Of a stretch of DNA of 64,000 bases, positions 3,964-16,290 are shown piece by piece (the first letter of the stretch is position 1; each line of letters begins with the position of its first letter). Source of the stretch: Sphyrna mokarran (lineage: Eukaryota); contig JAGIQG010000009.1 in NCBI GenBank assembly GCA_024679065.1, forward strand, positions 93,310,001 to 93,374,000, in the 5' to 3' direction. Made by a program: the position numbers and the translations under genes. Below the pieces are notes generated by a model that had not been told where the DNA came from, searched no databases, and was given only the letters and a program-made list of their open reading frames with translations.

Positions 3964-4236
3964 CCCAGTTTCTGGTCTCCACTCCAATGCTGCTGTGTTC
4001 ATACATACAGGAATAAATGGCTCTGTCACTCAACTCAATCTGCGCCCATCTCCTGAGCTGGCAAGTGCCATTGTGGTTGGGCAGCATGCCTGTAGAATAT
4101 GTATCCATGATCGGCTTGCCATTTCTCAGGAGAATGACTTCGATATCACATGGGTAAAATCCAGTGAGGAGGCAGGAGAGTTGCATCCATTTAGTGGCCG
4201 ATGCCTTGTTCACAGAAACAAACACCTGTGGTGCAA
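3964..4236 (-). CDS. MHC class I heavy chain, exon 4 (alpha3, Ig C1-set domain)
   Basis: tctctcag acceptor, 273 nt, gtaaga donor. Translation APQVFVSVNK...LSCLLTGFYP.DIEV...LPNHNGT.QL...YSCMYEH...NW. Confidence 0.96.
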
Positions 4237-5046
4237 CTGAGAGATATCAAAATAGATCAGAGTTAAGTTTATGCGTGTCACCCTTAAACTGGAATTAGAT
4301 CTCTGACCCCAGAAATACAAAATCTCAGAAACGTCAGAGCAAAAGGGGTCATTTGGCTCCCTGAGTCTGCACCAAACGAGGATCATTCATTTCTGTTTAA
4401 GTATTCTAATGCCCTCTTGAATGCCTTGAGTGAACCTGCCTCAAACTTGCAGAATGTGGTTTACAGATCAGACTCACTGTGTGAAAGATTTTCTTGCATC
4501 ACATTTGCTTCCTTTTCAAATCACTTCAAATCTGTGCCCCTGTTTTATGAGCAAGAACAGTCTTTTCCTTGATCTATCCTGTTTGACAACCTCATCATGA
4601 TTTCGAGGAACTCTATCACATCAGTCTCAAACACTCCAATTTAGTCTCATAACTGAAGTTGCTGATCTGTGGAATCATTCTTGTCAACCTCTTCTGCACT
4701 TTTTACAATGTATCCATACCTTTCCTTTAGCATAACAGCTGTACATGTACAGAATTTTTCAGCTGAGGTCTAACTAATATCTTTATAAGTTCAGCAGAAT
4801 CTCCTGTACCCTATGTCCCTATTAATAAAACCAAGAAAGCTATCAAATTTAATAACTCCACCAGTCCTGTCACCTTCAATAATCTATGCACATATAGAAC
4901 AAAGTCCCTCTACTCCTTAATTCATTTAAAAATTACTTTATATTGGCTCTCCATATTCTACCTACGAAAATGCATCACTTCAGACTTTCCTCCAATGAAG
5001 CTCATCTGTTACTTATCTGCTCATTCCATTCATTTATCTATGTTCT

Positions 5047-5318
5047 TAGAATCTTATGGTGCAGAAGGTAGCATTCCATCCATTGAGCCTGCACTAATCA
5101 CAATCCTACCCTTGTCCCCCTGACATAAGGGGCAATTTAGCATGGCCAATCCATCTAACCTGTATATCCTTGGACAGTGGGTGGAATGAGGAGGAAACCC
5201 ACGGAGAAAAAGGGAAAATGTGCGAACTCCACACAAACAGTGACCTAAGACAGGAATTGAACCCGAGTCTCTGAAGCTATGAGAAAGCAGTGCTCACCAC
5301 TGTGCTATCATGCTGCCC
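5047..5318 (-). mobile_element. V-SINE (HE1-like)
   Basis: Reverse complement of gggcagcatgatagcacagtgg...tgtgtggagttcgcacatt...ggattggccatgctaaattgcccct. Confidence 0.85.
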
Positions 5319-5447
5319 TAACTAAGAACCAAATTTTTTTGAAGTTCCACACTGTCTTTTTGACAATACTTCCAAGTTTTGTGTCATTCACAAACTTCAA
5401 AATTTTGCCTGGCACACCAGAGTCTAGATCATTAACATTATCATATC

Positions 5448-6365
5448 AGGTACTGGGTTCACTGTTACTTGTCATTTATATCAATGATTTGGATGAGAAT
5501 TCAAAAGGCACAGTTAGTAAGTTTGCAGATGATACCAAGATTGGTGGTATAGTGGAGGTTATCTAGGATTGCAATGGGGTCTTGATCAATTTGGCCAGTG
5601 GGCTGAGGAATGGCAGATGGAGTTTAATTTACATAGCAATGCATTTTGGTGAATCGAACCAGGATAGGACTTGCTCAGTTAATTGTCAAGTGTTGGGGAG
5701 AGTTATAGAACAAAGAGATCTAGGGGTATAGCTCTTTGAAAGTTGAGTCAGAAGTGGACAGAGGGGTGAAGAAGGCCTTGGTATGCTTTGTTTCATTGGT
5801 CAGAATATGGAATATAGGAGTTGAAACAGTTGGTTAAGTTCTGGAAGACATGGAATACCGTGCACAATTTTAGACACCCTAATAAACTAGAAAGAGTGCA
5901 GAAAAGATTTACTAGGAACAACCCAGAGGTGATGGTTTGAATTATAAGGAGAGCTGGATAGACAGATTTTTTTTTTCTTCCCTGGAGTGGAGGAGACATA
6001 GGGGTGATCATATAGCGATCTATAAAATCATGGGCAGCATAGATTAGCTAGATACTCCCAAAGTTGGGGGAGTCTAATACTAGAAGGCATATATTTAAGG
6101 TGAGAGGGGAAAGATATAAAAAAAGAGTCCAGAGGGGCAATCTTTTTACACAGAGGGTGAAATAAGTTGCCACAGGTAGCAGTAGAAGTGGGTACAATTC
6201 TGTCTTTTTAAAAACGTTTAGACAGTTACATGTGTAAGATGGCCATGGAAGGATATAGGCCAAATGCGGACAATTGAGGCTAGGGGGTTAAAAAAAAGGG
6301 GGGGGGGGCAAATGGACAAGTTGGGCCAAAGGCTGGTTTCCATACTGTAAACTTCTATGATTCTA
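5448..6365 (+). mobile_element. 5'-truncated CR1 LINE
   Basis: [27 protein letters not shown], with tail ttctatgattcta. Confidence 0.88.
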
Positions 6366-7291
6366 AAATCAAGGGCCCCAACACCTCTACAAACTTTCCG
6401 CTAGCTCAAAATAGATCCATTGATCATTATTCTATGATATCTATTATTCAGCCAATTGTCCATTAGGGTGCTATAGTCCCTTTTATTCCATGAGGTATAA
6501 CTCCTTTCTCAATTCTGGCACTGTATTAAATGCTTTCTGAAAGTCCACATACATCACATCAACAGTGTTGCCCTCATCACTGTTATTTTCTGTTACCTCC
6601 TTAAAACATCCAGCATGTTTGTTAAACATGATTTCCCCTCTGAGAATCCATGGTCTTCCTAATTAATTAACATTTTTTCATGTGACCAGTAATTCCATTC
6701 CAAATAATTGATACCAGAAGTTTGCCAACAAGTGATTTTAAATTAACTGGCTTGTAATTCCTGTGATTATTCTTATAAATCTGTTTTGAAGAAGGGTGTA
6801 ACTTTAATGGTTCAATTCTGACCTTGTGTGACTGTGTGGGCATTGTATATTTTTTCCCTATACTTGTAGCTTTTTTTTTTAAATTGCTCTGGTTTCCTCC
6901 CATAATCCAAGGAAGTGCAGGTTAGGTGGATTGGCCACGGTCAATGCATGGAGTTACAGGGACAGAAGAGGGAGTGGACCTCAGAAAATTCTCGTTTGGA
7001 ATCTCGGTGCAAACTCAAATGAGCCAAATGGCTTCCTTCTGCATTGTAGGGATTTTATAGATTTGCAATTCTCCAGACCTCTGACAGCTCCCCTGACTCT
7101 AGAGAAGGCAGGAAGATTATGACTGGCACCATTGCAATTGTCATTCTTACTTCCTTTAATATCTTTGATGCATGTCAGGGAATGGTGTGGATCCCCTTAA
7201 AATGGGGATTGGGAAATAGATCTCCAGTCCGAATTGCAGAATTTCAAAACATTCCTGCTAACTGACTGTTAATATCCTTTTCCTCACTCAC

Positions 7292-7564
7292 AGGGTCTCA
7301 GTTCCTGTTCTCCATCCTTCAGGTATTTCTTCAGTGACTCAATGCATTCCTGCTCCAAGTAACGCTTCACGTGCTTGTTAAAGCCAGGGGTCTGGTCCCA
7401 CCTGTTCTTGCTCACTTCTCCCCAGTTCACACGAGTTACCCAGACCATGTGATCCTTATCAAAGTTGACATAATCTTTCCCATCCCAGCCGAACTGCTCA
7501 AATCCACTGGTGCTTCCATCATTCCTCATCTCACAACCATACATTAGTTGATAGGTGTGGATTC
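7292..7564 (-). CDS. MHC class I heavy chain, exon 3 (alpha2 domain)
   Basis: tgacag acceptor, 273 nt, gtgagt donor. Translation GIHTYQLMYGCE...GWDGKDY...YLEQECIESLKKYLKDGEQELRP has the C101/C164 pair. Confidence 0.97.
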
Positions 7565-7871
7565 CTGTCAATCAAACACACACAGTCAGAACTTGTTTAA
7601 AAGATAACTGTTATCCTCCATTGAGGAGGCAGAGAGACACTGGCATGTGAGAGGGAACGGGGAGCTTGAGGGGCAGGCAGGCAGAGAGACAGGCAGATGG
7701 GCAGGCAGAGAGACAGTGACACAGACGTACAGTGGGAGGAAAAAGAGACTGATATGAGGATAAGTAGAAAGACATTTTGCAGATCGAGGAGGCATGGAAA
7801 AACGGAAAGACATAGTGAAATTAAGAGGCATGGAGTGAATTGAGAAACAAGCAGGTGAATACAGGCACCAA

Positions 7872-8157
7872 ATCTACAGTGCAGGAAGACAGAATTTGGC
7901 CCATTGAGCCTGCACCGACAACGAGCTCGCTCAGGTCCCGTAACCCCATATATTTAGCCTCCTAATTCTCTGACACAAAGGGTCAAGGTGGCATGGCCAA
8001 TTAATCTAACCTGAACACCTTTGGACTGTGGGATGAAACTGGAGCACGAGAAGAAGCCCATGGGGAAAATGTGCAAACTCCAGACAGTTACTCGAGGCCA
8101 GAATTGAACCCACATCCCTTACTTTATGAGGCTGCAGTATTAATGACTGTGGGCACC
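7872..8157 (-). mobile_element. V-SINE (HE1-like)
   Basis: V-domain reverse complement ctttggactgtgggatgaaactggagcac...tgtgcaaactcc. Confidence 0.8.
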
Positions 8158-8651
8158 CCTTATGGGTAATACATAAGAGGACAAGTGACATGGGAGGGAA
8201 TAGAATGATAGTGGCTTGTAGGGATTGGGGGGTTGGGTTGGGATGGGAGTGGAAAGTAATGGAGACATATGGGAAAGGGCTAGAATCCCAAGACATGTAA
8301 AAGGTAGAAATAGTCAATGATTGGCCTCCCACCATTGGTATATCTTTGGAAGGGGGTTCACCCTGGAATCTGATAATCCCCATTTCCAGTATGAGGGTGA
8401 TTTCCCACGCTCCTCTGAAGATGGACCTCTGCAACACTATTAGCCCCTACCAGCTACCCCAACTCTGCTCACTACCCTGGGACACAAGCAATTCTGTCTC
8501 CATCTCCATCTCCCGTCCTTCAGCTCATTCCTAACACCAATCCACCACATTAGATATACATGTAAACAACTGCCTGGTTCCCCACTCTCAGTGTGTCACC
8601 CCTTGCCAGCCTATTGAATTAACTGTGCACAGTGAGACAGCAAGCACTCAC

Positions 8652-8912
8652 CATCTGTCTGGTTGGTCCGCTTCATGATGATCTGAATACTGATTGTCAG
8701 AGCCTGTTCCCATTCCCGTGCAGTCTGTGTTTGCTGCTTCCAATACTCAGGACCTTTGCTGTCTGCCATCCAGCACTGTCGAGGTATCATCTCCTTCCGA
8801 TTGCTGTCATACAGCACAAACTCCATATCATCCACATAGCCAACAATCACAAACTGTGGAAGACCAGGAATTGGGGTCATTGATGTAAAGAAATACCGGA
8901 GAGAGTGAGAGT
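8652..8912 (-). CDS. MHC class I heavy chain, exon 2 (alpha1 domain), shark UAA-like
   Basis: tgtttcag acceptor, 261 nt, gtgagt donor. Translation (D)SHSLRYFFTSMTPIPGLPQFVIVGYVDDMEFVLYDSN...GPEYW...KRTNQTD has Y7, Y59, R84 and the N86 glycosylation motif. Confidence 0.97.
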
Positions 8913-8974
8913 CTGAAACACAGAGACACGCATCAGGGGATGAACCCAAAACATCAGCCCCATACAGAGGAGGA

Positions 8975-9155
8975 NNNNNNNNNNNNNNNNNNNNNNNNNN
9001 NNNNNNNNNNNNNNNNNNNNNNNNNNNNNNNNNNNNNNNNNNNNNNNNNNNNNNNNNNNNNNNNNNNNNNNNNNNNNNNNNNNNNNNNNNNNNNNNNNNN
9101 NNNNNNNNNNNNNNNNNNNNNNNNNNNNNNNNNNNNNNNNNNNNNNNNNNNNNNN
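8975..9155. other. Assembly gap (181 N) in MHC intron 1
   Basis: Run of N. Confidence 1.
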
Positions 9156-9639
9156 ACAGAACATCTAGCATGAACCTCCAAACCAAAAAAAAAACAACCC
9201 CATAAGAGAAGCAAAATGGGAGGAAGCTTTGTAAATAATGGCCAGTTACATTGGACATCATCAGCTAGTTACAGGCCAAACTATGGGCCAGTGGCACTGA
9301 ATATTGTCTGATATAGATGGGATCTGTGAACCACTCTTCTCCCTTCTATTAAGGGTCTTGTCTCCAAAGTGACCAGAGAGAATAATCATTGCCTGAGTGG
9401 CTAAACCCAACACCTCATAGGTCAGATACTTAACCTCCTCCGAGAAAAAATATCAACATTGCTGACAGACTGAGGAAGATGGTCCTGGGGGTTACTTAGC
9501 CACTGATAGACTAAGAGCATGACATAGAGCAATTGACAGACTCAGAGGGTTCTGGCTGGCCCACCCACTGATATGCTATGGAAGGAGGCTCTAGTTTACT
9601 CCTGAACTAAAGAGACTGGTGTCCCAGATATAATCAACC

Positions 9640-10100
9640 TCAGGTTCTGACCTGAAATGGGGGTGTTTGCTGATGACTGCACCATGTTCAGCACATTCAT
9701 ATTTCCTCAGGAATACAAGCAATCCATGCCCAAATGCAGGAATACCTGGATAATATCCAAGTTTGAACTGAGAGTTGGCAAGAAACATTCGTGCATGAGT
9801 GCCAGGAAGTGGCCATTTATCACAAGATCACCCCTTGACATTAGATGACTTTACCATCTCTGAATCCCCCACTATTAGTACTGCGGATTACTACTGACCA
9901 GAAACTGAAGCGAACAAGCCATATAAATATGTGACTACAAAGGAGATCAGAGGCAGCAGCGAATAACTCACTTCCTGACTTACAAAAGCCTGTCCAATAG
10001 CTAAAAGTAATAGAAAAAAATACTTTCCACTTGCCTGGCTGAGTCCAGCTCCACTAACATCATGGAACAACATCATGGAACAACAAGAATACACAGAAAG
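9640..10100 (+). mobile_element. Decayed L2/CR1-type LINE fragment
   Basis: GVFADDCTMF RT motif and downstream LINE-like sequence with stops. Confidence 0.6.
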
Positions 10101-10270
10101 ATTGGCACTATAGGGAATCAATAACTTATACTAAATTCCATTCCTTTTGTGCCAGTTGTTGTTATTGTTTTATCAAGTTTTGGTATTCTGTTTATTTTTA
10201 TTATATTATTTTGAGTAAACTATTACAATCTTTTAGAATAGAGAGATTGTTTCAAGTAATTTGTACTTGT

Positions 10271-10598
10271 CATAAAATCCCTACAGTACGGAAAGAGGCC
10301 ATTCCGCCCATTGAATCTTCAGTGACCACAATCTCACCCAGGCCCTTTCCCCATATCACTACATATTTACTCACTAATCCCTCTAACCTATACACCTGAG
10401 AACATTAAGGACAATTTTAGCATGGCCAAAATCGACCTAACCCGCACACCTTTGGACTGTGGGAGGAAACCAGAGGAAACTCATGCATACGAGGAGAATT
10501 TGCAAATTCGACACAGATAGTGACCCAAGCTGGCAATTGAACCCAGGTCCCTGAAGCTGTGAAGCAGCAGTGCTAACCACTGTGCTACTGTGCTGCCC
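10271..10598 (-). mobile_element. V-SINE (HE1-like), near full length
   Basis: tRNA-like head gggcagcacagtagcacagtggttagcactgctgcttcacagc, V-domain and CR1-like tail. Confidence 0.9.
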
Positions 10599-12147
10599 AT
10601 CTGTATTGTATTTGTGCATGTTAGGAATAAACTACAACCTTATATTTAATTGATTTTTTTATGTATTTAAAAAAGATGAAATCTGGATTTTGGTTTCACT
10701 TTAAAGTAGAACCAGAGATTCTGAGGCTCAGTTTGTGCACTAACATTTTTAATGTGGTATTACGATGCCTGACATGAACAGCTGCATTTCTGAGCTACTG
10801 ACCCCCTTAGTAAAGCACAAGAAAAGAATATGCTGTTGCCCAGAAACAGACCTACAGAGAAAGAAAGTTTTATTTACAGGTCAGACTATTCCACAAAAAC
10901 TGCCAGAGCAAGTAGGATAGAAATTGCAGAGATGAGATTTCCCAACAGAAGATAAAAGGTCTCATAAGACAAGGGTGTGGAAGATAAAGAAAGGAGGGCC
11001 CATGAAAATCTTCTAGTCAAAATAAAATGACAAGAATCTAGAATAGATCCTATTCAGTGAAGTTAAAATAAGCAGAGAAAATGCTTTGAAATGTAGAAAC
11101 CTGCAGGTAGCTATACCATGGGCCAATGTGAGCTTTCAAGAAGCCACATTGAGGAGACAGCCAAATGTGGACAATATCATACTATGGGCCTGTGAAACAA
11201 AGATATTGTGATGGACCAGTCTGGAAGTTGTTAGCAGCATTGGAAGCTGCCAAAGGATGGCCTTTCACTCACTGTTTTGAACTGGTTATGAACATTAGTT
11301 AACCAGAGTAGGAGTATTCTTGCAGAACACATCTGCTATGATGTGGTGCTTGCTGGCCACTTAAATTTTGGAGACAATAAAGCTGCCTTGCCCATAGCAG
11401 GATATCCAGATCATAGGTACATAAATTGAACAGAAATTGTTTCCTCCTGACTGGATCAATGGTGTATGGGAATGCCAATAAAACTGTTGTCTATGAGAGC
11501 TGATATGCAGTATTGCACACTCCTGCAGAAATAGCAGGTCGGCTCTGGTGTTGGCAAGGAAATCTCAGGTTGCAAACCAACGCATAGCACTGCACATGTT
11601 AATAAATACAATCCTTATCATCATTTTAGTGTTCGCTAAGCAGCTCTATTGTTTTTCCACAGGTGGTTGGTTCCTGTGCAGCCACAGGCCAAAATTCTCT
11701 GGTCTTACATACCCTGTTACCACTGTTAGCAGGAACACAGAGTTTGGTGATCAGCCAAGTCTTCCTTCACAATACAGGGAAAGGAGGATCCCAGCTGCAG
11801 GCGAGGTCAGAGTAAACTGGCCATAGTATTTGCCTAAAACCATCCTGGCTTATTAAATTACAATTGTTCAATCAGCTGTGTATGCATGAGCACGTGCACA
11901 AAAATGTGAATTTTGTATTTTTTTTTGTAGAAGTCTCTTTTCCCTCAGAAGTTGCTATTCCCAGTTTCACACAGTTAGGATCCAACAAGCACTTCAGTTT
12001 CCAAACTAGCCTTTTCGTTATCTCCAATATTTTAGAGCTCAGGTATTTCATCCTCCAGTTCCCAAGAACTTTGCCATTCTTCTAGTGCTAGTCTTGTCCT
12101 TCACCTTCAAAGCATTAGACTCTGTCACCCAAGTCAAATGTGAGTCA

Positions 12148-14618
12148 TGTAATATAAATATAATATTATTAATATGTAATATAAACAGGGCCTAGGTTTA
12201 AGGCTGATAAAATTGGATACCCTAAATTAAAGAATTGGGCATATTAAAAATCAAACACAATCAAACCTCAGGCAGGCCAACTGTACAATACACAAACATA
12301 GAACATAGAACATTACAGCGCAGAACAGGCCCTTCGGCCCTTGACGTTGCGCCGACCAATTAGGAACAAGCAGTGACCCCCTAACCTAAACCATTTCCTT
12401 TTCATCCATAAACTTATCTACTAACCTCTTAAAAACGCCACCAAACTTGGCACATCTACAACTGATGCAGGCAAGGCATTCCATACCCTTACCACCCTCT
12501 GGGTAAAGAACCTACCTCTGACATCTGTCCTAAAACCACCACCCCTTAATTTAAAGCTATGTCCCCTCGTGCTAGCTTTCTCCATCCTAGGAAAAAGGCT
12601 ATCACTGTCCACCCTATCTAAACCTCTAATCATCTTATATGTTTCAATAAGGTCTCCTCTTAGCCGCCTTCTTTCTAACGAAAACAACCTCAAATCCTCA
12701 GCCTCTCTTCATAAGACCTGCCCTCCATACCAGGCAACATCCTGGTAAACCTCCTCTGTACCCTCTCCAATGCCTCCACATCTTTCTTATAATGCGGGGA
12801 CCAGAACTGCACACAATACTCCAAGTGCGGCCGCACTAGAGTTTTGTACAGTTGCAACATGACGTTGCGGCTCCGAAATTCAATCCCCTACCAATAAAAG
12901 CTAAGACTCCGTATGCCTTCTTAACAACCTTATCGACTTGACTGCCAACTTTCAGGGATCTATGCACACATACACCAAGATCCCTCTGTTCATCAACACT
13001 ATTAAGAATCCTACCATTAGCCCTATACTCTACACATTTATTATTCCTGCCAAAGTGCATTACCTCACACTTTTTCACATTAAACTCCATTTGCCACCTC
13101 TCGGCCCAGCTCTGCAACTTGTCCAAGTCTCTCTGCAAATTATAACACCCCTCTTCACTATCTACCACTCCTCCAACTTTAGTGTCATCCGCAAATTTAC
13201 TAATCCATCCTTCAATACCCTCATCCAGATCATTTATAAAAATTACAAACAGCAGGGGCCCCAAAACAGATCCCTGAGGTACACCACGAGTAACCAAACT
13301 CCACGATGAATATCTCCTATCAACCACCACCCTCTGTCTTCTATCTGCTAGCCAATTCCTAATCCAATTAGCTAAATCACCCTCAATCCCATACATCTGC
13401 ATTTTCCGCAGAAGCCTTCCATGGGCCACCTTATCGAATGCTTTACTAAAGTCCATATATACCACATCAACTGCCTTACCCCCATCCACCTCTTTGGTCA
13501 CTTTTTCAAAAAACTCACTAAGGTTAGTAAGGCACGACCTACCCTTCACAAAACCATGCTGACCATCCCCAATCAATTCATTTCTCTCTAAATAACTATA
13601 AATCCTATCCCTAATAATTCTCTCCAATACTTTGCCCACAACAGAAGTAAGACTCACCAGCCTATAATTCCCCGGAAAGTCTCTCTTCCCCTTCTTGAAC
13701 AATGGGACCACATTCGCTATCCTCCAGTCTTCAGGCACTATACCTGTAACCAATGACAACCTGAAGATCAGAGCCAGAGGCTCTGTAATCTCCTCTCTCG
13801 CCTCCCAGAGAATCCTAGGGTAAATCCTGTCCAGCCCAGGGGACTTATCTAACTTCAAACCCTCAAGGATGTCTAGCACATCCTCCTTATCTACTTCAAT
13901 ACTTTCCAGTTTGCAACCCTGTATCCCAGTGTTCTCCACAAACATGTCTGAGCCTGATTCATCAATCTCCCATCAAGGTCATTGCACCCGACTGATACTC
14001 AGCAGGAGATCATTGCATTGGCCTATTGTTAGAAGACCAGATTGGGTCAGACTTCGTCACCGCAAGTTCCTGCAGTTGGCTTAATCTGATAACAGGTTAC
14101 ATGCAAGTAATAGCATGGAGATGGACACCTGGGGGCGGACCCTGGTGTCCTGTTAGGCAGACATCAAGAAACCCACTGGGACCTCATTGGCCAGAAGCCA
14201 GAGAAGTCAGACAAGTTTCTGGAAAGGCAAGCAGGCAAGAGATAAAGGAATACATTTTCAGACACCAGGGATGAAGTCTCGATGAAGGACGCAACCCTTG
14301 ACCAATGGAAGACTGACCAGAAAAGGAAGGAAGCAAGGAAGAAGCTGCCATCGAGACTCACCTTCGTGACGATGGACCAGAGGGACTCAGAATCAAGTCT
14401 GCAGTTTTAACAAAACCATATTTGTGGGTAGTATATTTGAATCTGGGGTATCCTCTTGTTTCATGTGGGTAATTTAAGGGCAAGTAGTGTTATTGTTAAT
14501 AAACTTGTTGGACCTTTACTTGTGTTTGTCGTTTGACCATCTTGCAAATAAGGGCACCAGAGTAAAACATCAGAGTAAGCAAACTAGTAGAAAGCATCTG
14601 ATATTTAAAATCACAACA
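12148..14618 (+). mobile_element. Solo LTR (TG...CA, 4-bp TSD gtca) interrupted by a CR1
   Basis: Begins tgtaat (12148) and ends acaaca (14618). gtca lies at 12144-12147 and 14619-14622, and aataaa at about 14498. About 0.83 kb once the CR1 is removed. Confidence 0.65.
12300..13936 (-). mobile_element. Young 5'-truncated CR1 LINE (RT domain, with frameshifts near the 3' end)
   Basis: ORF 12836-13945 has [19 protein letters not shown] and FADD. (ATGTTCT)n tail; 9-bp TSD cacaaacat at 12291-12299 and 13937-13945. Confidence 0.97.
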
Positions 14619-14859
14619 GTCACCTTTGCTACTCATCTGGGTCATGGCTTGGTCCCTTCTTAGCCTCTTCTCTGTTTGGTCTTCCTAATCTGTTGCTAAT
14701 ACATCAGTTAATCTTCTGCTCATTCCTCCTCCATTGATTTGATCTACTGAGAAGTGGGAAGTTTAGGGGTTGGGGAGGGTGAGTGGTACTGATGTCTAGT
14801 GGTTTGTTGCCTCACTTCATTCCATCCTCTAGACCCTATTTCTGTCCTCCTTTCTCTGA

Positions 14860-15760
14860 TTCTGCTCACTGGCAGGCAAAGGTTTACAAGTCTGCTAGAC
14901 AATAATCAGACTCACAGTTCTGTTTGCTTACTCTGCAATTGTTTTTTGCCACCTGTGCATAACTGAGGTACTGTGTGTGTGTGTGCCAAATCTTGTAGAG
15001 ATGGCCTGCCTTACCACATAGACAAGATTGCAGGCAGTAACCTATCTGATGCCCTTTGTGCTTGTGGTTCTTGAAGGTGGTAGCACTGCAATTGGCCTCC
15101 ATATGCCAAATTTACTGCTGTATTGATAAACTTTGGGTTTTCTGAGGTACGTAAGATAGCTTGGATTTCCATGGATAGAGAATGTGAGGGAGAGTAGAGA
15201 TTGCTACCAAAACATCCCTCTTGAATGAAATCTTGAATTGCCATTTGCTGGTCTAAATCCCAAAGCTATGCTATCATCAATTGCAACCTCATTGGCTCAC
15301 CTAGCAAGGAACGTGAGCACATCAATGATAGGAATAGAGGACTGTAGAGAAGCACAACATCGGATGGTACTGTTGTGACAGAGGCGTGAACAAGGGCTCA
15401 GATATGAAGATTCTCAGGTGTGGCAGGCCTCTCTTTTACTTGTACACCTACTGAAATGTCCTGCACACAACAACATTCTTGAAAGTCATGCCAAAGTATC
15501 CAGTGTTGGCAAGGGCTTGCAAACAGTGGATGCCCATGGCTTCAAATCCATAGGATTCCAAATGAAATGATGAAGCCACGGCCTTTGCCAGCTTTCACTA
15601 TCACCCCAATGTGTTACATAGTCCTAGTTTAGGGCATATCCAATTGCAGCTCTTAAGTTCTCAATGTTAAGCAGTGAAATCCTTTCAGCGTGAACAAACA
15701 CCACACAGATGACCTCCATATTCACAAAACATCAAAGACTTTGCTGAAACCCCCAATAAA
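14860..15760 (-). mobile_element. Decayed L1/Tx1-type ORF1 (zinc-knuckle) relic
   Basis: Degenerate CCHC knuckles ..MEANC..KNHKHKGHQIGYC..CLCGKAGHLYKI, followed by SYAQVA. Confidence 0.6.
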
Positions 15761-15895
15761 AGAAATGAAACCAACAAAAAAACACTAAATGCATGGAGGG
15801 ACAAACCATGAACAGAATCTCTCGACCCGTCCAATTACTCACTAAAGATGAACGCCCCAGTATACAGTCACTGAGATCTTCCCGGCTGTATTACT

Positions 15896-16016
15896 GACAA
15901 TAAGAAGTCTCACAACACCAGGTTGAAGTCCAACAAACAAACTTGTTTAACATTCATCTGGCGCTGTGAGGCTTCTAATTGTGTTTACTCCAGTCCAACG
16001 CCAGCATCTCCACATC
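15896..16016. mobile_element. Short Penelope-like terminal-repeat remnant with 8-bp TSD
   Basis: taagaagtctcacaacaccaggttgaagtccaac...ccagtccaacgccagcatctccacatc, flanked by gtattact at 15888-15895 and 16017-16024. Family call is from recalled shark repeats. Confidence 0.65.
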
Positions 16017-16027
16017 GTATTACTCAC

Positions 16028-16076
16028 CTGCAGAGACCTCACTACACAAAAGGATCAGCACTGTCAGTCCAAGCAT
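16028..16076 (-). CDS. MHC class I heavy chain, exon 1 (signal peptide MLGLTVLILLCSEVSA)
   Basis: Minus strand reads aacaATGCTTGGACTGACAGTGCTGATCCTTTTGTGTAGTGAGGTCTCTGCAG|gtgagt. The 49-nt exon has a phase-1 donor and joins exon 2 as G|AC (Asp), giving ...SA-DSHSLRY. Too short for the ORF track. Confidence 0.85.
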
Positions 16077-16199
16077 TGTTATTTCCTTCGACTGGCTAGG
16101 ATAAAAAAACTATTTTTCGGACACACTGTTGTTCGGTGTTCCTGAGCTGTGTGCCCCCCTGCTGCATGTGTTAAACAAGGAAATGCTCCTCGTTTCCTC

Positions 16200-16290
16200 A
16201 ACCACCTCCGCATTGATTGGTTGGACAGTGTATTTACATCCAATCGGAATAAGGATCTCGCTGTGAATAATCAGTATCCGTACGGAAGAG
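16200..16290 (-). promoter_or_regulatory. MHC class I proximal promoter: inverted CCAAT (Y-box-like) followed by a CCAAT box
   Basis: Minus strand has ccgATTGGat (about 16240-16244), then aaCCAATca (about 16216-16220), 140-170 bp upstream of the ATG in locally CpG-retaining sequence. This is the order seen in vertebrate class I promoters. X and S boxes were not confidently identified. Confidence 0.55.

What the first reader, a model, noticed from the sequence alone, without database searches (positions are those of the whole stretch)
3964..16076. UAA-like shark MHC class I gene with an altered peptide-binding groove (candidate non-classical offshoot)
Seen: four open, phase-1-linked exons. Y7, Y59, R84, Y123, W147, Y159 and Y171 are kept. 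The alpha2 helix reads EVSKNRW instead of the usual ..TKNKW (T143S, K146R), and CIESLKKY instead of CIEWLKKY (W167S); HLA numbering assigned by eye. Established: these residues anchor peptide termini in classical class I, and W167 walls the A pocket. Inference: a recent UAA-lineage paralogue with an opened N-terminal pocket and altered C-terminal anchoring, possibly binding extended peptides or other ligands. No TAP, PSMB or tapasin exon was recognised in about 48 kb upstream, unlike the classical locus.
Basis: partly seen in the sequence, partly recalled or inferred. Interest (0 to 1): 0.7.

Follow-up and report, generated by a model that had tools for sequence, protein, structure and literature searches.

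The report
Conserved lone shark non-classical MHC gene
This is an intact, spliced, single-copy shark immune gene, far from the main antigen-presenting cluster and with a binding groove almost unchanged between species; it is likely an old, specialised (non-classical) MHC class I gene that would display a narrow set of peptides, not a recent offshoot.

Summary
In detail: four open phase-1 exons with S143, R146 and S167, none of which occurs in 30 of 30 houndshark classical alleles. The gene is not a pseudogene: a transmembrane and a last exon lie just outside the window (342-aa frame), and spliced contigs exist in three organisms. It lies about 7 Mb from the TAP/proteasome/UAA block, alone in a tRNA cluster. 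It is not recent: its exons are only 73-76% identical to their nearest paralogues, and its alpha3 belongs to the second shark alpha3 type (UAA-2, dogfish UAA), not to houndshark UAA (AU p=0.0004). Orthologues are about 94% identical (exon 3 pN/pS about 0.08). S167 is kept in 5 of 5 orthologues, S143 in 4 of 5, R146 in 0 of 5, so altered C-terminal anchoring is weak. S167 also occurs in classical pig and primate alleles, and Q63 argues against the known extension mode. The exon for the tail tyrosine has lost its splice donor. Verdict: an apparently unnamed, conserved class Ib locus of the UAA-like group, likely still peptide-binding; ligand untested. The scan held no look-alike note.

The parts
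16216..16244 (-). Promoter Y box (ATTGG, 16244-16240) and CCAAT box (16220-16216), aligned with the classical UAA promoter; the X2-like element just upstream carries changes
16028..16076 (-). Exon 1, leader peptide (49 nt coding, phase 1)
   Evidence: 132 nt of the spliced contig lie 5' of exon 2, which fits this exon plus about 83 nt of 5'UTR (inferred)
8652..8912 (-). Exon 2, alpha1 domain (Y7, Y59, Q63, R84, N86 sequon; extra Cys near position 50)
7292..7564 (-). Exon 3, alpha2 domain (C101, C164, W147, Y159, E163, Y171)
7410..7412 (-). Codon for S143 (T in 30 of 30 Triakis alleles; S in 4 of 5 orthologues)
7401..7403 (-). Codon for R146 (K in 5 of 5 orthologues: private change)
7335..7337 (-). 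Codon for S167 (W in 30 of 30 Triakis alleles; no change listed in 4 of 4 laid runs, S in Mustelus asterias)
3964..4236 (-). Exon 4, alpha3 domain of the second shark alpha3 type; extra Cys at HLA 211 and 241. Followed outside the window by the transmembrane exon (G000:C1548:93305830-93305705), a dead cytoplasmic exon (about 93305248-93305213) and the last exon (93305067-93305021)
53640..53713 (-). tRNA-Thr(CGT), part of the tRNA cluster that marks the gene's position
59527..59599 (+). tRNA-His(GTG), same cluster

Best explanation
This is an intact, spliced, single-copy shark MHC class I gene about 7 Mb from the classical UAA/TAP/proteasome block, with a groove nearly unchanged between species, so it is likely a non-classical (class Ib) molecule that would still bind a narrow set of peptides through a likely widened front pocket. 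Shown: gene structure, splicing, position, age, conservation, residues. Inferred: a membrane heavy chain that pairs with beta2-microglobulin; the peptide C-terminus is held much as usual (R84, S143 hydroxyl, K/R146, W147); the N-terminal amine network (Y7, Y59, Y159, Y171) is intact while S167 removes the wall, giving room for a bulky or basic first residue (E163 nearby) or a short overhang. The dead cytoplasmic exon likely removes the YxxA sorting signal, so the protein would recycle through endosomes less than UAA. It descends from an old duplication in the UAA-like group that carries the second alpha3/transmembrane type and has been held by purifying selection.
For: Open 342-aa frame with transmembrane exon. 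A 2082-nt contig of run X2 joins exons 2-3-4 with 0 differences in 807 nt; spliced contigs also in X17 and X21. Single 100% hit per exon in the genome, next best 61-66% protein identity. Proteasome- and ABC-family exons at 85.7-86.2 Mb beside an intact UAA-type gene at 85.79 Mb. Orthologue in Mustelus asterias 94% identical in alpha1 and alpha2 against 71-72% for the classical pair; Triakis alleles average 84-86% among themselves; 40 of 43 groove-lining positions identical. Exon 3 against four other organisms: 8 synonymous and 3 non-synonymous shared listed differences, pN/pS 0.08, binomial p=0.0001. Six of the nine peptide-terminus anchors unchanged (7, 59, 84 as R, 147, 159, 171); the other three are 143, 146, 167. 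Model of the orthologue's alpha1-alpha2: ordinary platform, pLDDT 89.8. S167 widens the A pocket in peptide-binding pig SLA-1 (PMC8918614, PMC9777387, passages). YxxA/T in the tail of 26 of 30 other shark class I proteins, absent here.
Against: No ligand, surface-expression or tissue data. Low polymorphism rests on at most two samples of this organism, as contigs that drop rare variants. S167 occurs in classical molecules too (7 of 25 primate hits, a set biased by the query; pig SLA-1), so it does not by itself make a gene non-classical. Two extra alpha3 cysteines, one replacing an aromatic residue kept in all 18 other rows that cover it, and the dead exon could mark relaxed selection in this species. 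The Mustelus RefSeq model stops after alpha2 (196 aa). Exon skipping is inferred from splice sites and contig length, not seen as a joint. Only 11-12 of 16-17 differences per run were listed.
Confidence: 0.6

Rival explanations
1. A specialist for N-terminally extended or N-modified (formylated, acylated) peptides, in the manner of mouse H2-M3 (recalled) or pig SLA-1 extension.
For: S167 needs two base changes from a Trp codon and is kept in 5 of 5 orthologues while the rest of the groove is nearly frozen; S167 permits 1-3 extra residues in SLA-1. Two divergent proteins of catshark and zebra shark also lack W167 and group weakly with it.
Against: Q63 instead of E63, which PMC8918614 calls necessary for the extension mode. 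Y7, Y59, Y159, Y171 all kept, as for a free amine. The grouping with the catshark and zebra shark proteins has support 46/26 only.
Confidence: 0.18
2. A conserved class I-like protein that binds a non-peptide ligand or acts mainly as a receptor ligand (NK-type or transport role), the peptide anchors being leftovers.
For: Near-invariant groove, single copy, position beyond the UDA/UFA/UGA group, altered tail. G74L and other fixed alpha1-helix changes against 30 of 30 Triakis alleles.
Against: Anchors for both peptide ends are mostly kept, unlike the UGA- and UCA-like genes of the same genome, which lost most of them.
Confidence: 0.12
3. A slowly decaying or second classical-type UAA duplicate, as the first reader's 'recent paralogue' or an early-stage pseudogene.
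For: Species-private R146, two extra alpha3 cysteines, a dead exon; two broken genes with the same alpha3 type at 85.95 and 92.82 Mb show that such copies die. The alpha1-alpha2 tree cannot reject grouping with houndshark UAA (AU p=0.20).
Against: pN/pS 0.08 in exon 3, open frame, spliced in three organisms, 73-76% DNA identity to the nearest paralogues, alpha3 excluded from the houndshark UAA clade.
Confidence: 0.1

Closest known systems
Elasmobranch 'MHC-Ia-like' genes, nurse shark 'UAA-2' (Verissimo et al. 2023, PMC10751288: text parts 1-3 of 7 and supplement parts 4, 5, 10, 97, 98 of 98 read)
   Same: Same alpha3 and transmembrane type: clade support 99/98; by hand count 65 of 90 alpha3 residues match the nurse shark UAA-2 query. 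Single copy, outside the TAP/PSMB block.
   Different: The true UAA-2 orthologue in this genome is the gene at 89.63 Mb (alpha1-alpha2 clade 100/98; zinc-finger neighbours), which keeps T143, K146, W167 and the tail tyrosine exon. The gene studied has no zinc-finger motif in 144 kb and sits in a tRNA cluster.
Classical shark UAA (nurse shark Gici-UAA*01, PDB 6LUP; Triakis scyllium alleles; own gene at 85.79 Mb; spiny dogfish Q8HWH7)
   Same: Best solved relative (E 2e-34); most anchors; promoter Y and CCAAT boxes; dogfish UAA has the same alpha3 type (66%).
   Different: About 7 Mb from TAP/PSMB; conserved rather than polymorphic between species; S143, S167; alpha3 only 36-41% to houndshark and nurse shark UAA; no tail tyrosine.
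Shark UDA (single-copy class Ib; known here from PMC10751288 and its query alignment; the primary paper was not held)
   Same: Single copy, MHC-linked, away from the class Ia block, keeps most anchors.
   Different: A separate gene at 91.75 Mb (41% alpha1, 36% alpha2 identity); keeps T143 and W167.
Pig SLA-1 with S167 (PMC8918614, PMC9777387; passages read)
   Same: S167 opening the A pocket with Y7, Y59, Y159, Y171 intact.
   Different: SLA-1 is classical and has E63; this gene has Q63 and E163.
Mammalian oligomorphic peptide presenters HLA-E, HLA-G, H2-M3 (recalled, not tested)
   Same: Works-like analogy: conserved groove, S143 in HLA-E/G, non-Trp 167 in H2-M3, tail without sorting signal in HLA-G (all recalled).
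   Different: No orthology; independent origin.

Membership tests
Classical MHC class Ia (UAA) | Tight linkage to TAP1/2 and PSMB8/9 | tested here: not met
   Family hits at 85.73-86.22 Mb, gene at 93.31-93.33 Mb; their identity as TAP and PSMB8/9 is inferred from position beside UAA
Classical MHC class Ia (UAA) | Invariant peptide-terminus anchors (7, 59, 84, 143, 146, 147, 159, 167, 171) | tested here: not met
   6 of 9 kept; all 9 invariant in 30 of 30 Triakis alleles
Classical MHC class Ia (UAA) | High allelic polymorphism | tested here: inconclusive
   0 differences in 807 nt between the window and one other sample; 94% between species; no population sample
Classical MHC class Ia (UAA) | High, ubiquitous expression | not testable with these tools
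   Only contigs were available; their depth cannot rank genes
Classical MHC class Ia (UAA) | Cytoplasmic YxxA motif | tested here: not met
   Homologous exon has AT for GT at the donor; skipping inferred
MHC class I heavy chain (any) | Leader, alpha1-3, transmembrane, tail, with C101-C164 and C203-C259 | tested here: met
MHC class I heavy chain (any) | Binds beta2-microglobulin and a groove ligand | not tested
   No complex was predicted; needs refolding
UAA-2 / MHC-Ia-like group | Second alpha3 and transmembrane type | tested here: met
UAA-2 / MHC-Ia-like group | UAA-2 alpha1-alpha2 clade | tested here: not met
   Outside the 100/98 UAA-2 clade in the best tree, though the AU test does not reject the grouping (p=0.26); 53% and 62% identity to the 89.63 Mb gene
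UAA-2 / MHC-Ia-like group | Surrounded by zinc-finger genes near UAA | tested here: not met
   0 C2H2 motifs in the window and 80 kb downstream; 18 beside the 89.63 Mb gene
UBA | UBA alpha1 (loss of Y59) and UBA alpha3, multicopy cluster | tested here: not met
   Y59 kept; alpha3 45% to UBA; cluster lies at 95.58-95.84 Mb
UDA / UEA(UCA) / UFA / UGA | Lineage-specific sequence | tested here: not met
   Each is a separate locus at 91.0-92.2 Mb, at most 43% identical in alpha1 or alpha2; labels set by eye

The most novel reading that the evidence does not exclude
An unnamed shark class Ib lineage, missed in published MHC maps because it hides in a tRNA cluster, perhaps as old as the galeomorph sharks if the catshark (XP_038671319) and zebra shark (XP_048376291) proteins are its orthologues, that presents N-terminally extended or N-modified peptides and stays on the surface for lack of its sorting tyrosine: an independent shark counterpart of H2-M3 or HLA-G.
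Probability: 0.18. Interest if true: 0.62.

Novelty: new member of a known kind. Interest (0 to 1): 0.38.

Why it matters
Shark class Ib genes have no known peptide ligands. A single-copy gene with a frozen groove and only one lasting anchor change (W167S) is an easy refolding and peptidome target, and would test whether dedicated, oligomorphic peptide presenters exist in sharks. It also shows that UAA-like grooves have been paired with two old alpha3/transmembrane types. As biology of a kind it is ordinary: non-classical class I offshoots with anchor changes arise in every vertebrate group.

Tried and rejected
No RNA holder was on record as RNA; expression rests on spliced contigs. Contig depth was not used to rank expression. 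Single-sequence fold was useless (pLDDT 33.9); the aligned fold gives no coordinates, so pocket shape and a possible C211-C241 bond were not measured. The alpha1 tree and the alpha1-alpha2 tree leave the base unresolved; AU tests reject neither houndshark UAA (p=0.20) nor UAA-2 (p=0.26) as sister; the alpha2 tree was the quick version, and 16 rows (long branches, near-duplicates) were left out. The alpha3 sister inside the second clade is unstable (bamboo shark UAA-2, a model lacking part of the domain, and zebra shark; own paralogues). No ISRE or kB match in any of 3 promoters, including UAA, so that scan is uninformative. Pseudogene reading rejected. UDA, UBA, UGA, UFA, UEA identity rejected. 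Triakis clusters retrieved (30 of 35 members listed) all carry T143, K146, W167; the four representatives placed in the tree have the UAA-type alpha3. The papers on UDA and UEA and one older paper sought for the nurse shark UAA-NC genes (PMC id recalled) were not held. Search by sequence in the scan's notes found nothing. No complex prediction was run.
Full report
Observation. The four exons are real, open and phase 1 on the minus strand.

Gene is complete and spliced. Outside the window lie a 126-nt transmembrane exon (G000:C1548:93305830-93305705), homologous to those of two paralogues, and a last exon (93305067-93305021). Read together the six exons give 342 residues without an internal stop. 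A 2082-nt contig of run X2 (organism A, a different sample and study from the best DNA holder X1) joins exons 2, 3 and 4 with 0 differences in 807 nt and runs on for 1143 nt beyond exon 4; runs X17 and X21 of two other organisms hold contigs that join exons 2 and 3 at about 94% identity, and the X17 contig continues into exon 4 (loose end). The runs are only guessed to be RNA, but the joints fall on exon borders and the genome search shows no second near-identical copy.

Tail. The small exon that carries the YxxA motif in the paralogue at 89.63 Mb is recognisable but has AT for GT at the donor and no AG at the homologous acceptor. Skipping it keeps the frame and leaves no tyrosine; 26 of 30 other shark class I tails have YxxA/T. 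The contig length fits skipping: 126 plus 1017 nt ends at the end of a 30-mer present 367 times in the genome, a likely assembly break; the alternative end was not controlled, so this is a hint. In mammals that tyrosine, on exon 6, directs endolysosomal trafficking (PMC12518231, abstract and passages).

Position. All 37 alpha2 matches lie on contig C1548 at 85.8-95.8 Mb. Proteasome-family exons (86.02, 86.14 Mb) and ABC-membrane exons (85.73, 86.08, 86.22 Mb) flank an intact UAA-type gene at 85.79 Mb with all nine anchors: the class Ia block, about 7 Mb away. By eye against the query alignments in the supplement of PMC10751288, UAA-2 is at 89.63 Mb, the UCA/UEA cluster at 91.0-91.7, UDA 91.75, UFA 91.78, UGA 92.15 and UBA 95.58-95.84. 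The gene sits alone among 24 tRNA genes found in the window and 80 kb downstream, with a nuclear-receptor exon, likely RXRB, at 94.32 Mb. The same tRNA cluster lies between the class Ib group and SLC39A7/RXRB in the white shark and catshark tables, where no gene in it is labelled MHC, though unlabelled loci exist.

Age and kin. Nearest paralogues are 73-76% identical in exon DNA. The alpha3 falls in a well-supported second clade (99/98) with UAA-2, spiny dogfish UAA and sawshark and sevengill genes, apart from houndshark, nurse shark and ray UAA and UBA; holding it with houndshark UAA is rejected (p=0.0004). The alpha1-alpha2 platform forms its own branch with a Mustelus asterias protein (100/99) in an unresolved UAA-like star. 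The promoter keeps the UAA-like Y and CCAAT boxes. So UAA-like ancestry is right, 'recent' is not.

Selection. The Mustelus orthologue is 94% identical in both groove domains, while the classical genes of the two species are 71-72% identical; 40 of 43 groove-lining positions agree. Four further organisms (B, C, D, E) are about 94% identical in exon 3 and differ from each other at only 2 listed sites. Their shared listed differences from the window are 8 synonymous and 3 non-synonymous over 64 codons, pN/pS 0.08; 5 differences per run were not listed, and the four organisms count as one comparison. S167 is kept in 5 of 5 orthologues, S143 in 4 of 5 (T in one contig of depth 2, possibly an error), R146 in 0 of 5.

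Mechanism. The lasting change is W167S. In pig SLA-1, S167 widens the A pocket and allows 1-3 extra N-terminal residues, but the same paper states that E63 is necessary (PMC8918614 and PMC9777387, passages); this protein has Q63. S167 also appears in 7 of 25 primate class I hits. The C-terminal end keeps R84 and W147, a hydroxyl at 143 and a basic residue at 146. A fold of the orthologue shows an ordinary platform. I therefore read it as a likely peptide-binding class Ib molecule with a fixed motif and a roomier A pocket (0.6), ahead of a specialist for extended or modified N-termini (0.18), a non-peptide role (0.12) and decay (0.1). Against the reading: no ligand data, no population sample, and two extra alpha3 cysteines found in none of the other shark rows that cover those positions.

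Novelty. Named shark lineages are UAA, UBA, UCA/UEA, UDA, UFA and UGA (PMC10751288, PMC12562908 passages); 'MHC-Ia-like' genes are mentioned as unpublished and zinc-finger-flanked, which fits the 89.63 Mb gene and not this one. Five literature searches for shark class I lineages (listings only, apart from the papers named) showed no description of this locus, but the key J. Immunol. papers, their supplements and a thesis could not be seen and may name it. RefSeq holds the Mustelus copy as a truncated 196-residue model. It is a new member of a known kind; interest 0.38.

Noticed in passing
G000:C1548:85.78-85.83 Mb (L047-L050): The UAA-type gene has an inverted near-identical neighbour at 85.82 Mb with a frameshift and stop in alpha1; the UAA promoter appears to carry two Y-box modules.
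   Followed up: partly
G000:C1548:85.95 Mb (L044-L046) and 92.82 Mb (L066): Two broken class I genes with the second alpha3 type; the 85.95 Mb one has an unusual alpha1 start like horn shark O19481.
   Followed up: partly
G000:C1548:89.63 Mb (L039-L043): UAA-2 orthologue: all nine anchors kept, alpha1-alpha2 strongly conserved from horn shark to catshark, promoter without the Y box at the UAA position, zinc-finger neighbours.
   Followed up: partly
P0012, P0013, P0014, P0021: Dogfish UAA and sawshark and sevengill UAA-like proteins use the second alpha3/transmembrane type, whereas houndshark, nurse shark and ray UAA use the first: UAA-like grooves have swapped alpha3 partners between shark groups.
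   Followed up: partly
window 3964-4236: Extra cysteines at HLA-equivalent 211 and 241 of alpha3 (possibly neighbours in the fold, recalled) and one near 50 in alpha1, the latter shared with Mustelus.
   Followed up: partly
G000:C1548:92.06 Mb (L053): A single class Ib gene between UFA and UGA with a hydrophobic, anchor-less groove that I could not assign with confidence to a named lineage.
   Followed up: no
window 16028-16090: Leader exon and flank are 80-88% identical in DNA to those of UBA and UAA-2, higher than any other exon.
   Followed up: no
window 12300-13970: High-copy retroelement-like insertion in intron 1 with a 378-codon open frame on the minus strand; not classified.
   Followed up: no
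P0141 (catshark) and P0341 (zebra shark): Divergent class I proteins with Q146, C147 and non-Trp 167; possible distant orthologues, support weak.
   Followed up: partly
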